Origin: Kagunavirus LF7074P3
Strand: one strand, 5' to 3'
Sequence record: OZ035791.1
Length of the DNA: 40,766 nucleotides
Part shown: one piece after another, positions 4,702 to 38,559 of the stretch
Position numbering within the stretch: position 1 is the first letter of the stretch
How the letters are laid out: the number at the start of each line of letters is the position of its first letter
Program-made: the position numbers and the translations under genes
Notes under the pieces: model-generated
The model's database searches: none
What the model was told of the DNA's origin: nothing
Seen by the model: the letters and a program-made list of their open reading frames with translations, nothing else

Positions 4702-5088
4702 ATGAATCTTAAAGCAACTGTCGTAGCGGGAGCATGTTTCATCATCCTGGCTTACGCACACGGCATCTACCAGTATCGCAGCGGCTGGAACGGAGGCCGG
4801 GCGAATCTCGTTTCGCAGCAACAGCAGAAAGCACAGGCTGAGTTAGCTAAGAAAACACAACGGCAGCGGCAGGATGAATCGAAGGCCGCCGCCGCTGATA
4901 ACGAAGGCAAGACGAAATCAGAGGTAATCACCCGTGAAGTCGTTAAGTACATTAAAACGCCTGGCCGCAGCGTGTGCACTTTTGACCCTGAGCGCGTGCA
5001 GCTCAAGTCCCGCGCCGTCGCAAACGCCAATTCCATCCCCGGATACGACGATGATGCAGCCGCCGTGCAAACTGGCACTGCCAAGTAA
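4702..5088 (+). CDS. Rz: Rz-like inner-membrane spanin (i-spanin)
   Basis: 128-aa ORF: N-terminal hydrophobic TMD (VVAGACFIILAYA), charged coiled-coil-like periplasmic domain; contains overlapping lipoprotein ORF in +1 frame; RBS AAAGGGG. Confidence 0.75.
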   Translation: MNLKATVVAGACFIILAYAHGIYQYRSGWNGGRANLVSQQQQKAQAELAKKTQRQRQDESKAAAADNEGKTKSEVITREVVKYIKTPGRSVCTFDPERVQLKSRAVANANSIPGYDDDAAAVQTGTAK

Positions 5089-5197
5089 CGACGCGGACGA
5101 GGATTTAGCTATTGACGTCCAGAACGCAGAATGTGTACGGCAACTGAGACTTAAAGTGTTCATGTTGCAGGATTACGTGAGGAATATTCTGGAATAG
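4934..5197 (+). CDS. Rz1: Rz1-like outer-membrane lipoprotein spanin (o-spanin)
   Basis: 87-aa ORF (GTG start) beginning inside Rz and extending past its stop; signal peptide with lipobox LSAC, Pro-rich mature region SPAPSQTPIPSP. Confidence 0.8.
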   Translation: MKSLSTLKRLAAACALLTLSACSSSPAPSQTPIPSPDTTMMQPPCKLALPSNDADEDLAIDVQNAECVRQLRLKVFMLQDYVRNILE

Positions 5198-36063: not shown

Positions 36064-36612
36064 ATGAAAGATTATAGCGAAGTAACTTTAGGTGAGTTGC
36101 AGGACGAGTACGAAGATATGCTCTACCCGTTCATCTGCGACGGGGACTACAACGGCGTCTATAACGGGGTGAGCGAAGACCTGGCGCATGAGGTGCAGAT
36201 TAAGGAGTTGCGGGAAGACAACATTAAGAAATCTGAGCACATATCGCACCTAACAGGGCAAGTTAAGGAGTTGCGTCTGGCATTGGCCAAGGCTACTGGT
36301 GACGTGGAGGCATACAAACTTATCCGCAAAGGTGCGTACGGTTCGGAGCAATCTGGTTGCCGAAAAGAAGATACGCAGGAATGTGACCACAATTGGATTA
36401 TCGCTCCAGGATTGTTTATTGCCGAAGGCCACAAGGACAACGTGCCCGGTAGCCTGTTTTGCTGCGAATGCGGCAAGCGTGAGTGGGACGGACTTGAGTA
36501 TGGGCCAACAGCCTGTACACGGGAGTGCAAACACAGTTTCTATTATGTAATAACAGATGGCTCCGCGCCGTTCGGTACGAAAGTATGTAAAACGTGCGGG
36601 GAATACTTCTGA
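36064..36612 (+). CDS. Cys-rich (zinc-ribbon-like) hypothetical protein
   Basis: 182 aa; N-terminal coiled-coil-like region, C-terminal CxxC...CxxC clusters. Confidence 0.5.
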   Translation: MKDYSEVTLGELQDEYEDMLYPFICDGDYNGVYNGVSEDLAHEVQIKELREDNIKKSEHISHLTGQVKELRLALAKATGDVEAYKLIRKGAYGSEQSGCRKEDTQECDHNWIIAPGLFIAEGHKDNVPGSLFCCECGKREWDGLEYGPTACTRECKHSFYYVITDGSAPFGTKVCKTCGEYF

Positions 36613-36815
36613 TGACCAGCATCTTATTTATCTGGGTGCTGTCCACGGGTCAGATGCATCTGGCGGCATCAGAAACGTTTTACTCGATGGAGGCGTGCCA
36701 GTCAGCGGCACGCGCCGCAGAGAACGCGCACTTCCTGTTTCAGGGTGACAAGCCTAACGATTCAGAGGTACGCGCTATCTGCTCACCTAAACGTATTGGT
36801 AAACAGGAGAAATAA
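36612..36815 (+). CDS. small secreted/membrane-anchored protein
   Basis: 67 aa from ATG 36612 (overlaps upstream stop); N-terminal hydrophobic signal-like segment MTSILFIWVLSTGQMHLAAS. Confidence 0.45.
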   Translation: MTSILFIWVLSTGQMHLAASETFYSMEACQSAARAAENAHFLFQGDKPNDSEVRAICSPKRIGKQEK

Positions 36816-37297: not shown

Positions 37298-37327
37298 ACC
37301 GTTATTAAGATAATTCCTACCCGTGGT

Positions 37328-37368
37328 ATCCTCCAGTTACTGCATACTTAATACGCACCTGGAGGATT
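37328..37368 (+). promoter_or_regulatory. hairpin sequestering the holin RBS
   Basis: ATCCTCCAG (37328-37336) pairs with CTGGAGGAT (37360-37368), 23-nt loop; 3' arm contains GGAGGA Shine-Dalgarno 6 nt before TTG start at 37373. Confidence 0.5.
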
Positions 37369-37372
37369 CATC

Positions 37373-37681
37373 TTGGATAAATTTACTGAAACAGTGACAG
37401 GCTGGCTTCTCGCCGCCGCGCTCGCCGGAGGGGTCATCGGACTACGACAACATAAGTCCGTTATTTCTGGCCCTATCGACGGATTCTGCTTTATTGCTAC
37501 TGGTTTCGCCTGCGCTGTATTTGGCGCACCTCTCGCGGCTCAATGGTTCGGTATCACGGGCGACCGTGAAATCGCTGGCCTTGGCTTCATCATCGCTATT
37601 CTCTGGATGCCTATCTATTCCCGTCTCTCCAGTATCGTCGCTGGAGAATACATCGCACGTCGAGGAGGCACAGATGAATGA
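37373..37681 (+). CDS. holin (3-TMD, class I-like)
   Basis: 102 aa with three hydrophobic segments and charged C-terminus; TTG start; directly upstream of lysozyme gene. Confidence 0.6.
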   Translation: MDKFTETVTGWLLAAALAGGVIGLRQHKSVISGPIDGFCFIATGFACAVFGAPLAAQWFGITGDREIAGLGFIIAILWMPIYSRLSSIVAGEYIARRGGTDE

Positions 37682-37946
37682 GTTATTCTGGTTCGGCGGT
37701 ATGCTGGCAATCGGCGGCACATCGCTGTTTAATGTATACCATCCGAGCGTGGATGACGGGCTATTTGGTCGGGTGCTCTATATCCTGACTGCTATCGTCT
37801 GCGCTGCCGGATGTATCCACCTGTTACAGGGCAGCATGTCGCCGACGCTGCCTGAGACATTAATCACATTAGTTGCGCTGCGTCAGATTCGTCAGGCGTG
37901 GCTGTCATACGGAGGACATAAGCGTGTCTCGAAACATTTCAGATAA
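37674..37946 (+). CDS. second holin-like 2-TMD membrane protein (holin/antiholin candidate)
   Basis: 90 aa from ATG 37674 with strong RBS AGGAGG; two hydrophobic segments; overlaps both neighbours. Confidence 0.5.
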   Translation: MNELFWFGGMLAIGGTSLFNVYHPSVDDGLFGRVLYILTAIVCAAGCIHLLQGSMSPTLPETLITLVALRQIRQAWLSYGGHKRVSKHFR

Positions 37947-38412
37947 TGGATTGCATTTTACCGCCGCGTTTGAGGGGTTCCGCGGAACTGCGTATCGTGC
38001 TACGCCATCGGAAAAATACTTAACTACAGGCTACGGTCATTACGGGCCGGACGTGGCCCCAGGCAAGACCATCACGCCAGGGCAAGGCCTCCTGTTACTG
38101 AACCGTGATATGGCTAAGGCCGTAGCTGCGGTTGACGCAGCGGCGCACCATTCGCTAACACAGGCGCAGTTTGATGCAGTGTGCGACCTGGTCTATAACG
38201 CGGGGGCCGGCGTTATTTCGGCTACTACCGGTACAGGTAAGGCACTGCGCTCCGGTGATATCGCGACGTTACGGGCTAAACTGGCGCTGTTCATCAACCA
38301 GAACGGCAAACCGTTACTGGGCCTTCGCCGCCGTACCGCCGGTCGCCTGGCGCTGTTTGACGGTAAACCGTGGCAAGAGGCGGAGGCTATCGGGCGCGCG
38401 GTGAAAGGTTGA
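37924..38412 (+). CDS. endolysin (phage lysozyme, GH24-like)
   Basis: ...AFEGFRGTAYRATPSEKYLTTGYGHYG... lysozyme-like catalytic region; GTG 37924 with AGGAGGA upstream. Confidence 0.7.
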   Translation: MSRNISDNGLHFTAAFEGFRGTAYRATPSEKYLTTGYGHYGPDVAPGKTITPGQGLLLLNRDMAKAVAAVDAAAHHSLTQAQFDAVCDLVYNAGAGVISATTGTGKALRSGDIATLRAKLALFINQNGKPLLGLRRRTAGRLALFDGKPWQEAEAIGRAVKG

Positions 38413-38476: not shown

Positions 38477-38509
38477 ATCCCGGCCCTGACCCAGCCGGGA
38501 TTTTTTTTA
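38477..38509 (+). terminator. strong rho-independent terminator
   Basis: TCCCGGC-loop-GCCGGGA hairpin followed by T8. Confidence 0.85.
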
Positions 38510-38530
38510 TCTATTTTCTGCAATGACTAG

Positions 38531-38559
38531 TTGACTATTATCCTAGACCCTACTATATT
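38531..38559 (+). promoter_or_regulatory. sigma70-like promoter TTGACT-N17-TATATT
   Basis: Hexamers with 17-nt spacer, 34 nt upstream of ATG 38593. Confidence 0.55.

What the first reader, a model, noticed from the sequence alone, without database searches (positions are those of the whole stretch)
37373..38412. Lysis cassette with two overlapping holin-like genes and a GTG-initiated lysozyme
A 3-TMD protein (37373..37681) and a 2-TMD protein (37674..37946) overlap each other and the endolysin start (37924). The pair could be holin/antiholin or a two-component holin. The endolysin has no obvious N-terminal signal-anchor, so canonical holin-dependent release is expected.
Basis: partly seen in the sequence, partly recalled or inferred. 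Interest (0 to 1): 0.4.

Follow-up and report, generated by a model that had tools for sequence, protein, structure and literature searches.

The report
Known Kagunavirus phage lysis cassette
This is the ordinary, already annotated cell-bursting gene set of a Kagunavirus coliphage (two small membrane proteins plus a soluble lysozyme); the only open question is which of the two membrane proteins makes the hole and which one tunes its timing.

Summary
Three overlapping, strongly SD-preceded genes lie at 37373-37681 (TTG, 102 aa), 37674-37946 (ATG, 90 aa) and 37924-38412 (GTG, 162 aa). All are under purifying selection.

The window is a Kagunavirus (Guernseyvirinae), 99.9% identical to Kagunavirus LF7074P1. 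GenBank relatives carry the same three calls, named class I/II holin-like proteins plus endolysin, and genome papers describe them.

The endolysin is a soluble GH24 muramidase, about 90% identical to the crystallised EC340 (PDB 8HP8). It has no signal-anchor, so holin-dependent release is expected.

- The 90-aa protein belongs to a family with three hydrophobic segments and a strongly basic tail. Its first and third segments are merely weak in this phage.
- The two membrane genes co-occur in 66 of 66 loci examined, across several genera.
- The Rz/Rz1-type spanins lie 32 kb away, at 4702-5197.
- The first gene's SD is locked in a hairpin or terminator. That arrangement recurs in at least six unrelated sequence versions, and the gene often has a non-ATG start.

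Best reading: the 90-aa protein is the holin and the 102-aa protein is a low-abundance partner or antiholin. This is untested in Kagunavirus. The only wet evidence is weak and comes from Jerseyvirus S10. Interest is low.

The parts
37328..37367 (+). RNA hairpin (AUCCUCCAG ... CUGGAGGAU). Its 3' arm contains the only Shine-Dalgarno sequence of the first lysis gene. In other genera the equivalent hairpin is terminator-like.
   Evidence: Fold of -20 kcal/mol. The SD pairing probability is 0.9999, rank 1 of 36 gene starts in the window. The same arrangement, with unrelated arm sequences, is seen in all 34 distinct upstream sequences from 66 loci.
37373..37681 (+). P1: a 102-aa small membrane protein with three helices and a TTG start. 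It is a holin-like partner, most likely a regulator or antiholin.
   Evidence: phrog_2359 at E 1.4e-29. Three hydrophobic peaks. AF2 model at pLDDT 80 with helices 3-26, 34-59 and 64-96. dN/dS 0.08-0.11. The depositor's TMHMM note for the 82%-identical Sciku orthologue gives three TMDs, N-out/C-in.
37674..37946 (+). P2: a 90-aa small membrane protein with an ATG start and a basic C-terminal tail. It is the most likely holin.
   Evidence: phrog_2508 at E 1.9e-33. Family alignment and hydropathy. The last 15 residues carry a net charge of +4, and +2 to +7 across the family. The Jerseyvirus S10 orthologue was lethal on expression. dN/dS 0.02.
37924..38412 (+). Soluble GH24 (T4-lysozyme-type) endolysin, 162 aa, GTG start, no SAR or signal sequence.
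   Evidence: PF00959 at E 5.8e-26. PDB 8HP8 'endolysin mtEC340M' at E 4e-96 over residues 1-161. EC340 was active in a zymogram assay (PMC8886149). No N-terminal hydrophobic stretch.
38477..38508 (+). Intrinsic-terminator-like hairpin (AUCCCGGC/GCCGGGAU plus a U run) that closes the cassette.
   Evidence: Fold of -13.8 kcal/mol, z -2.6. The simple scan missed it because the loop is 9 nt. Sciku is annotated with a terminator at the same place.
4702..5088 (+). i-spanin (Rz-like, N-terminal TMD), encoded among the head genes, far from the cassette.
   Evidence: phrog_2536 'Rz-like spanin' at E 2.8e-56. ORF. fTaEco01 annotates it 'putative spanin'. Kongari et al. define a Jersey spanin family that includes K1G and K1ind phages.
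4934..5197 (+). o-spanin (Rz1-like lipoprotein, lipobox LSAC). It overlaps the i-spanin gene by 155 nt.
   Evidence: phrog_5672 at E 7.4e-30 and phrog_1267 at E 6e-20. Sequence MKSLSTLKRLAAACALLTLSAC. The paper states a 155-bp overlap for phage Jersey itself.

Best explanation
The region is the holin-endolysin module of a virulent Kagunavirus siphophage.

**Proposed sequence of events.**
1. P2 (37674-37946) is the holin proper. It accumulates in the inner membrane and then triggers to form large, non-specific holes. This role is inferred.
2. The cytoplasmic, fully folded GH24 muramidase (37924-38412) escapes through those holes and degrades the murein. Enzyme identity is shown by homology to a crystallised, zymogram-active orthologue. 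Release through holes is inferred.
3. The Rz/Rz1-type spanin pair, encoded 32 kb away (4702-5197), then disrupts the outer membrane. This is inferred from family membership.

**P1 (37373-37681).** It is a strictly co-inherited three-helix membrane protein. It is probably made in smaller amounts than P2, because it has a TTG start and its SD is buried in a stable hairpin. It most likely binds P2 and sets the timing of triggering, as an antiholin or holin partner. This role is inferred and untested.
For: **Identity of the cassette.**
- 99.9% identity to Kagunavirus LF7074P1, and collinear with annotated relatives.
- Genome papers describe the same five lysis genes in Kagunavirus.

**P2 as the holin.**
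- It always abuts or overlaps the endolysin gene.
- It always has an ATG start and a free SD (pairing probability 0.64, against 0.9999 for P1).
- Its N-terminus has no positive charge and its tail is strongly basic throughout the family.
- It is better conserved between genera than P1: 40% against 22% identity, Kagunavirus to Jerseyvirus.
- In Jerseyvirus S10, expression of the P2 orthologue gave a 2-log drop in viable count. The P1 orthologue and the endolysin gave none.

**P1 as a partner.**
- It is present directly upstream of P2 in 66 of 66 loci, with junctions of -8, -4, +1 or +2 nt (-53 nt in one Dhillonvirus-type variant, L041, 2 loci). This includes Scapp, which has a different endolysin family.
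- Its start is non-ATG in three lineages.
- Its SD is sequestered by a hairpin in every lineage, although the arm sequences are unrelated.

**Need for a canonical holin.** All 64 endolysins found downstream of the pair lack an N-terminal hydrophobic segment.
Against: - No experiment exists for any Kagunavirus protein.
- The S10 experiment used 52-kDa trigger-factor fusions at 16 C. It measured colony counts, not lysis or timing, so a non-toxic P1 orthologue is weak evidence.
- In this phage P1 has the clearer three-TMD profile. TMD1 and TMD3 of P2 are weak.
- Structural neighbours of the P1 model are phage proteins named holin.
- 3 of 22 P1 relatives give sub-threshold Pfam hits to holin superfamily III.
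- Depositors' notes in the CPT records label either protein 'holin/antiholin'.
- The hairpin may simply be a transcription terminator that controls the whole cassette, rather than a P1-specific translational brake.
Confidence: 0.55

Rival explanations
1. Roles reversed. P1, the three-TMD protein encoded first in the cassette, is the class I holin. P2 is the antiholin or an accessory protein.
For: - P1 has three clear hydrophobic helices in this phage.
- Depositor's TMHMM note for the Sciku orthologue: three TMDs, N-out/C-in, labelled 'antiholin/holin class I'.
- In the CPT record for Scapp the P1 homologue is annotated 'holin' and the P2 homologue 'holin/antiholin'.
- Foldseek neighbours of the P1 model are named holin. 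LydA-like holins appear at E 0.1-0.7.
- Sub-threshold Pfam hits of distant P1 relatives to Phage_holin_3_3 and Phage_holin_3_1.
Against: - The P1 orthologue was not toxic in S10, while the P2 orthologue was.
- P1 lacks the net-basic C-terminal tail (net -1 to +2 across the family).
- Its translation signals are the weakest in the cassette.
- The Jerseyvirus P1 orthologue is so weakly hydrophobic that TMHMM finds no TMD.
- hhalign of the P1 family against lambda S gives probability 0.1%.
- The names of structural neighbours are themselves positional annotations.
Confidence: 0.2
2. Obligate two-component holin. P1 and P2 form the hole together as a hetero-oligomer, and neither suffices alone. 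Bacillus PBSX XhlA/XhlB and SPP1 gp24.1/gp26 are cited here from my own knowledge as examples of this kind.
For: - Strict co-occurrence in 66 of 66 loci across Kagunavirus, Jerseyvirus, Dhillonvirus, Scappvirus and unclassified Guernseyvirinae.
- Tight or overlapping junctions consistent with translational coupling.
- Both genes are under purifying selection.
- The two families are unrelated to each other (hhalign probability 0.5%), so they are not redundant paralogues.
Against: - The P2 orthologue alone reduced viability 100-fold in S10.
- Very different predicted translation efficiencies argue against a 1:1 structural complex.
Confidence: 0.2
3. P1 is not a membrane lysis regulator but a second, novel 'endolysin'. 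This is the claim made for the S10 orthologue, 'lysin1'.
For: The S10 paper reports about 1-log killing of Salmonella by the purified orf22 product added from outside, and found no TMD with TMHMM.
Against: - No catalytic domain in Pfam, NCBIfam or PHROGs.
- The family is a roughly 100-aa three-helix hydrophobic protein.
- External killing by a hydrophobic peptide is more simply explained as membrane activity.
- The canonical GH24 endolysin is already present.
Confidence: 0.03

Closest known systems
Lysis cassettes of Guernseyvirinae (Kagunavirus, Jerseyvirus) and Dhillonvirus. Examples: fTaEco01 TE1_061-063, Sciku 063-065, K1ind1, fBC-Eco01 Gp68-70, Golestan ORF66-68, Salmonella phage S10 orf22-24.
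   Same: - Same three genes in the same order, with the same overlaps and start codons.
- Protein identity is 80-100% within Kagunavirus. Identity to Jerseyvirus is 22% (P1), 40% (P2) and 75-80% (endolysin).
- Same distant Jersey-family overlapped spanins.

   Different: Nothing substantive. This genome lacks the NTN-hydrolase/HslV-like 'protease' gene that precedes the cassette in many relatives. Published class I and class II labels are applied inconsistently to the two proteins.
Phage lambda S105/S107-R-Rz/Rz1 (class I holin with a dual-start antiholin, soluble endolysin, spanins)
   Same: - A small multi-TMD holin gene overlaps the gene for a soluble endolysin.
- A two-component spanin is present.
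- An RNA structure lies at the translation start of the first lysis gene. Lambda's sdi stem-loop is recalled from my own knowledge, not tested here.
   Different: - No sequence relationship (hhalign probability 0.1-0.3%).
- No dual-start motif. The putative regulator is a separate, unrelated gene.
- The endolysin is a GH24 muramidase, whereas lambda R is a transglycosylase (own knowledge).
- The spanins are not adjacent to the cassette.
Systems with a separately encoded membrane antiholin or a second holin-like protein: P2 Y/LysA, P1 LydA/LydB(+LydC/D), mycobacteriophage LysF1a/LysF1b, PBSX XhlA/XhlB
   Same: Two distinct small membrane proteins sit in one lysis module, and one is proposed to modulate the other (papers listed; details from own knowledge).
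   Different: - No homology above threshold. LydA-family hits are only sub-threshold.
- Gene order differs: here the putative regulator comes first.
- No genetics has been done for the Guernseyvirinae pair.
Endolysin EC340 of coliphage PBEC131 (PDB 8HP8, engineered variant mtEC340M)
   Same: 161 of 162 residues align at E 4e-96. Same length, same VSRNIS N-terminus and a single PF00959 domain with no cell-wall-binding domain. Muralytic activity was shown by zymogram.
   Different: About 10% residue differences. 8HP8 is an engineered seven-substitution variant.

Membership tests
Guernseyvirinae/Dhillonvirus holin-like pair plus GH24 endolysin cassette (PHROG 2359 / 2508 / endolysin) | Sequence membership of both small proteins | tested here: met
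   phrog_2359 at E 1.4e-29 and phrog_2508 at E 1.9e-33, both near full length. tblastn finds hits in 283 records (P1) and 639 records (P2).
Guernseyvirinae/Dhillonvirus holin-like pair plus GH24 endolysin cassette (PHROG 2359 / 2508 / endolysin) | Gene order P1-P2-endolysin with tight or overlapping junctions | tested here: met
   Overlaps of 8 nt and 23 nt in the window. The same order holds in 66 of 66 loci. A downstream endolysin ORF was found in 64 of them.
Guernseyvirinae/Dhillonvirus holin-like pair plus GH24 endolysin cassette (PHROG 2359 / 2508 / endolysin) | Jersey-family overlapped i-/o-spanin pair encoded away from the cassette | tested here: met
   4702-5088 and 4934-5197, with a 155-nt overlap and lipobox LSAC.
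Canonical holin (functional class) | Small protein with at least one TMD, a hydrophilic charged C-terminus and a gene next to the endolysin gene | tested here: met
   P2 meets all three criteria. P1 has the TMDs and the position, but its C-terminus is not net basic.
Canonical holin (functional class) | Lethal, energy-poison-triggerable hole formation that releases a soluble endolysin | not testable with these tools
   The only indirect data are from S10, where the P2 orthologue gave a 2-log viability loss and the P1 orthologue gave none, both as TF fusions.
Class I holin, lambda S family (Pfam Phage_holin_3_1, holin superfamily III) | Sequence or profile membership | tested here: not met
   No Pfam hit for P1 or P2. 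hhalign against lambda S gives probability 0.1% (P1 family) and 0.3% (P2 family). Only 3 of 22 distant P1 relatives give sub-threshold hits (19.6 bits against a cut-off of 23.8).
Class I holin, lambda S family (Pfam Phage_holin_3_1, holin superfamily III) | Dual-start motif producing holin and antiholin from one gene | tested here: not met
   P1 begins M(TTG)-D-K and its next Met is at residue 79. P2 begins M-N-E and its next Met is at residue 10, without a usable SD.
Class II holin / pinholin (phage 21 S type) | Two TMDs, N-in/C-in, partnered with a SAR endolysin | tested here: not met
   The endolysin has no SAR domain here or in any of 64 related loci. The P2 family has a third hydrophobic segment. 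There is no Pfam Phage_holin_2 hit.
Antiholin (functional class) | Delays holin triggering, so that loss gives premature lysis | not testable with these tools
   Support for P1 is circumstantial only: weak start codon, sequestered SD, strict co-inheritance with P2 and non-toxicity of the orthologue.
GH24 T4-type phage lysozyme (PF00959) | Domain match and conserved catalytic Glu in the N-terminal xxEGF/WE motif | tested here: met
   PF00959 at 91.7 bits against a cut-off of 22.3. Glu17 (AAFEGF) lies in the conserved N-terminal AAFEGF/AAWE motif of the intact GH24 endolysins in the 58 distinct downstream ORFs (not in the HNH-interrupted L032/L050 or in Scapp). About 90% identical to 8HP8. The second acidic residue is probably Glu30. 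This is inferred, not tested.

The most novel reading that the evidence does not exclude
The P1 family may be a new, separately encoded antiholin or holin-partner class in Gram-negative siphophages. Its dosage would be set by a conserved hairpin that acts as both terminator and SD trap, together with weak start codons. Lysis timing in Guernseyvirinae and Dhillonvirus would then depend on the P1:P2 ratio, a two-gene analogue of lambda's S107/S105 sdi control. The weak, Gly-rich TMD1 of the Kagunavirus P2 might add lambda-like topological dynamics.
Probability: 0.3. Interest if true: 0.4.

Novelty: already known. Interest (0 to 1): 0.15.

Why it matters
It matters little as a discovery. The cassette is annotated in hundreds of Kagunavirus, Jerseyvirus and Dhillonvirus genomes, and its endolysin has a crystal structure.

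It has modest practical relevance, because these phages and this endolysin are used in therapy and biocontrol work. Database labels for the two membrane proteins are inconsistent: class I and class II are swapped between records, the labels 'holin' and 'antiholin' are used interchangeably, and one paper names the P1 orthologue 'lysin1'.

Who does what in this pair is a tractable open question. The strictly conserved pair and its conserved SD-trapping hairpin offer a clean system for studying dosage-based control of lysis timing.

Tried and rejected
- **Pfam and NCBIfam for P1 and P2.** No family reached threshold.
- **Remote homology of either family to lambda S, and of P1 to P2, by hhalign.** Probabilities were 0.1-0.5%, so I rejected a lambda S relationship and paralogy. 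Lambda S was used as a single sequence, so sensitivity was limited.
- **HMMER search of 1.84 billion representatives with P1.** Only 15 hits at E up to 1e-3, none linking to a curated family above threshold.
- **Word-indexed search with P2.** It returned only relatives of at least 82% identity.
- **AlphaFold on P2 as a single sequence.** pLDDT 62.8, too weak to settle the third TMD.
- **Embedded or adjacent spanin in or after the endolysin gene.** None found. A terminator follows at 38477-38508, and the +1-frame ORF 38171-38404 has no lipobox.
- **Longer TTG start at 37873 for the endolysin, and the 150-aa upstream extension of P2 from 37494 (a comparable extended 381-nt P2 call is in the RP180 RefSeq record).** Both rejected, for three reasons. 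They overlap conserved frames that are under purifying selection. They lack an SD. They disagree with orthologues and with the N-terminus of the PDB sequence.
- **Met10 start of P2 (used in the Sciku record).** Rejected, because Met1 has a GAGGAGG SD and is the start used in the other records.
- **Sigma-70 promoter scan.** No promoter-like site directly upstream of the cassette.
- **The search for related loci with the 22-sequence P1 alignment.** It failed because no stretch was conserved enough. The P2 alignment worked.
- **Papers on UE-M6 and ASEC2201 holins.** They concern unrelated phages.
- **The Jerseyvirinae proposal paper.** It is not held in the library.
Full report
**What is there.** The ORF list and the raw sequence show three consecutive + strand genes.
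- P1: 37373-37681, TTG start, 102 aa.
- P2: 37674-37946, ATG start, 90 aa.
- Endolysin: 37924-38412, GTG start, 162 aa.

Each has a strong Shine-Dalgarno sequence 5-7 nt upstream: GGAGGA, GAGGAGG and GGAGGA. P1 and P2 overlap by 8 nt (ATGAATGA), and P2 and the endolysin overlap by 23 nt.

The reading frames are real genes. Against Kagunavirus relatives, dN/dS is 0.08-0.11 for P1, 0.02 for P2 and 0.05-0.06 for the endolysin. P1 matches PHROG 2359 at E 1.4e-29 and P2 matches PHROG 2508 at E 1.9e-33; both families are labelled 'holin'. The third protein matches Pfam PF00959, Phage_lysozyme, at E 5.8e-26.

**Where it comes from.** The region is 99.9% identical to Kagunavirus LF7074P1. It is 89-93% identical to many annotated Escherichia phages of the genus Kagunavirus, subfamily Guernseyvirinae. 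Phage vB_EcoS_fTaEco01 is collinear with the window and carries identical gene calls of 309, 273 and 489 nt. [quoted passage not shown] Genome papers on the Kagunavirus phages fBC-Eco01 and VB_EcoS-Golestan describe the same set: two holin-like genes, an endolysin, and a spanin pair elsewhere in the genome. The finding is thus an already annotated, ordinary lysis cassette.

**Endolysin.** It aligns over residues 1-161 with PDB 8HP8, 'endolysin mtEC340M', at E 4e-96. The deposited sequence also begins VSRNIS, matching this ORF read from its GTG codon. The parent enzyme EC340, from coliphage PBEC131, is a 162-aa single-domain lysozyme that was active in a zymogram assay (PMC8886149).

Its N-terminus has no hydrophobic segment. 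The same is true of all 64 endolysins found downstream of the homologous gene pair in related loci, where the maximum 17-residue Kyte-Doolittle mean is 0.68.

GTG is the start in Kagunavirus, and other genera use ATG at the equivalent position.

**The two membrane proteins.** P1 has three hydrophobic peaks, at 8-24, 38-54 and 67-83.
- An AlphaFold model built on 16 sequences (pLDDT 80) gives three helices: 3-26, 34-59 and 64-96.
- The depositor's note for the 82%-identical Sciku orthologue reports three TMDs from TMHMM, N-out/C-in.

In this phage P2 has one strong hydrophobic helix (about 30-53), a Gly-rich weaker one (4-22) and a marginal third (about 53-79). So '2-TMD' is a fair reading of this sequence alone. 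The family alignment changes that picture.
- Jerseyvirus, TO17, phiEap-2 and Scapp orthologues have a clearly hydrophobic third segment (17-residue KD 1.6-2.1) and a much stronger first one (2.2-2.7).
- TMHMM predicts three TMDs for Jerseyvirus orthologues.
- The P2 family also has an N-terminus free of positive charge.
- Its C-terminal tail is basic, net +2 to +7 over the last 15 residues and +4 here. That is a classical holin signature.
- The P1 family tail is net -1 to +2.

Neither family belongs to a curated Pfam or NCBIfam holin family. Profile comparison detects no relationship to lambda S or between the two families. Distant P1 relatives give a few sub-threshold hits to holin superfamily III models. 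Foldseek neighbours of the P1 model are phage proteins named 'holin', with LydA-like ones only at E 0.1-0.7. These are hints, not membership.

**The pair is a conserved unit.** tblastn finds P2 relatives in 639 phage records. The Kagunavirus/Dhillonvirus type of P1 is in 283 records, and the Jerseyvirus type in 375. The Jerseyvirus type aligns collinearly with P1 at 22% identity, pairwise E 2e-8.

I fetched 58 IMG/VR loci through a P2 profile and searched them with HMMs of both families. Together with 7 GenBank loci and the window, 66 of 66 loci have a P1-family ORF immediately upstream of the P2-family ORF, with junctions of -8, -4, +1 or +2 nt (-53 nt in one Dhillonvirus-type variant, L041, 2 loci). 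This includes Serratia phage Scapp, whose endolysin belongs to a different family. Such strict linkage argues that the two proteins work together.

**Which is the holin?** The only wet data I found are for Jerseyvirus S10 (PMC9677904). Its orf22, orf23 and orf24 are the orthologues of P1, P2 and the endolysin. Expression of orf23 lowered viable counts 100-fold, whereas orf22 and orf24 did not. The authors then called orf22 a second 'lysin'. These were trigger-factor fusions induced at 16 C, so the evidence is weak, but it points to P2 as the lethal membrane protein.

Independent sequence evidence points the same way.
- P2 always starts with ATG. P1 uses TTG in Kagunavirus and Scapp and GTG in Jerseyvirus.
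- P2 is the better conserved protein between genera.
- P2 has the basic tail.
- The P1 ribosome-binding site is buried in secondary structure (next paragraph).

My best reading is that P2 is the holin and P1 is a low-abundance partner, most likely an antiholin or timing factor (confidence 0.55). The rivals are reversed roles (0.2), an obligate two-component holin (0.2) and P1 as an enzyme (0.03).

**A conserved hairpin over the P1 start.** In the window, 37328-37336 (AUCCUCCAG) pairs perfectly with 37359-37367 (CUGGAGGAU). The second arm contains the SD GGAGGA, five bases before the TTG.
- The SD pairing probability is 0.9999, the highest of 36 gene starts in the window.
- Among the other 35 starts, 26% have a fully paired SD-like motif and the mean pairing probability is 0.63.
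- The value is 0.64 for P2 and 0.29 for the endolysin.

Across the 66 loci there are 34 distinct upstream sequences falling into at least six unrelated hairpin sequence types: Kagunavirus, Dhillonvirus, Jerseyvirus, TO17-like, phiEap-2-like and Scapp. In every one, the SD-like motif of the P1 gene sits fully paired in the 3' arm. With a 26% background, six independent lineages all showing this would occur by chance at about 3e-4 (my estimate).

In Jerseyvirus and Dhillonvirus the hairpin is followed by a U run. The Shelanagig record annotates it as a terminator overlapping the RBS. In the window the U run is weak.

Whether the element acts as a terminator that gates the whole cassette, as a translational brake on P1, or as both cannot be decided here. 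I did not find it discussed in the papers I read.

**The rest of the lysis system.** No spanin follows the endolysin.
- A terminator-like hairpin at 38477-38508 closes the unit.
- A promoter-like site follows at 38531-38559.
- The spanins are at 4702-5088 (i-spanin, phrog_2536, E 2.8e-56) and 4934-5197 (o-spanin, lipobox LSAC, phrog_5672 and phrog_1267).
- The two spanin genes overlap by 155 nt.
- They match the 'Jersey' overlapped spanin family of Kongari et al., which lists K1G, K1H and the K1ind phages.

**Verdict.** The TMD count of the second protein should be treated as two or three. The roles of the two membrane proteins remain experimentally unresolved in Kagunavirus. The conserved SD-trapping hairpin and weak start codon of the first gene are the only mildly new points. 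Interest is low (0.15).

Noticed in passing
window 37328-37367 (and L004-L010, L012-L069 upstream of the P1 homologue): A hairpin has a 3' arm that contains the SD of the first lysis gene. The arrangement is conserved across at least six unrelated sequence types. It is terminator-like (U run) in Jerseyvirus and Dhillonvirus but less so in Kagunavirus.
   Followed up: yes
window 4702-5197: The Rz/Rz1-type i-/o-spanin pair (155-nt overlap, lipobox LSAC) sits among the head genes, 32 kb from the holin-endolysin module.
   Followed up: yes
window 37298-37372 versus L002 2791-3231, L004 1004-1441, L005 675-1109: Many relatives carry an NTN-hydrolase/HslV-like 'protease' gene of about 145 aa just upstream of the cassette. 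This genome lacks it, leaving only a 75-nt intergenic region.
   Followed up: partly
window 36594-36815 (probably starting at Met7, 36612): A small ORF (phrog_3766, function unknown) has a signal-peptide-like hydrophobic N-terminus and two cysteines. It lies three genes upstream of the lysis cassette and may encode a secreted or periplasmic protein.
   Followed up: no
L032 and L050-L052 (IMG/VR relatives), endolysin gene: In a few relatives the endolysin reading frame is interrupted after about 10 codons (…SDNGL|TADKLREVLHYDPDTG…HINGDGRDNRFCNLREA…). The inserted sequence looks like an HNH-type homing endonuclease. It is not present in the window.
   Followed up: no
GenBank records of relatives: The naming of the two membrane proteins is inconsistent. 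The labels 'class I' and 'class II' are swapped relative to TMD counts. Other labels include 'holin/antiholin class III' from a Met10 start, an over-extended 381-nt call in RP180, and 'lysin1' in S10.
   Followed up: partly
window 38477-38559: A terminator-like hairpin with a 9-nt loop, missed by the simple scan, is followed by a good sigma-70-like promoter (TTGACT-17-TATATT). This marks the start of the next block of small genes.
   Followed up: partly
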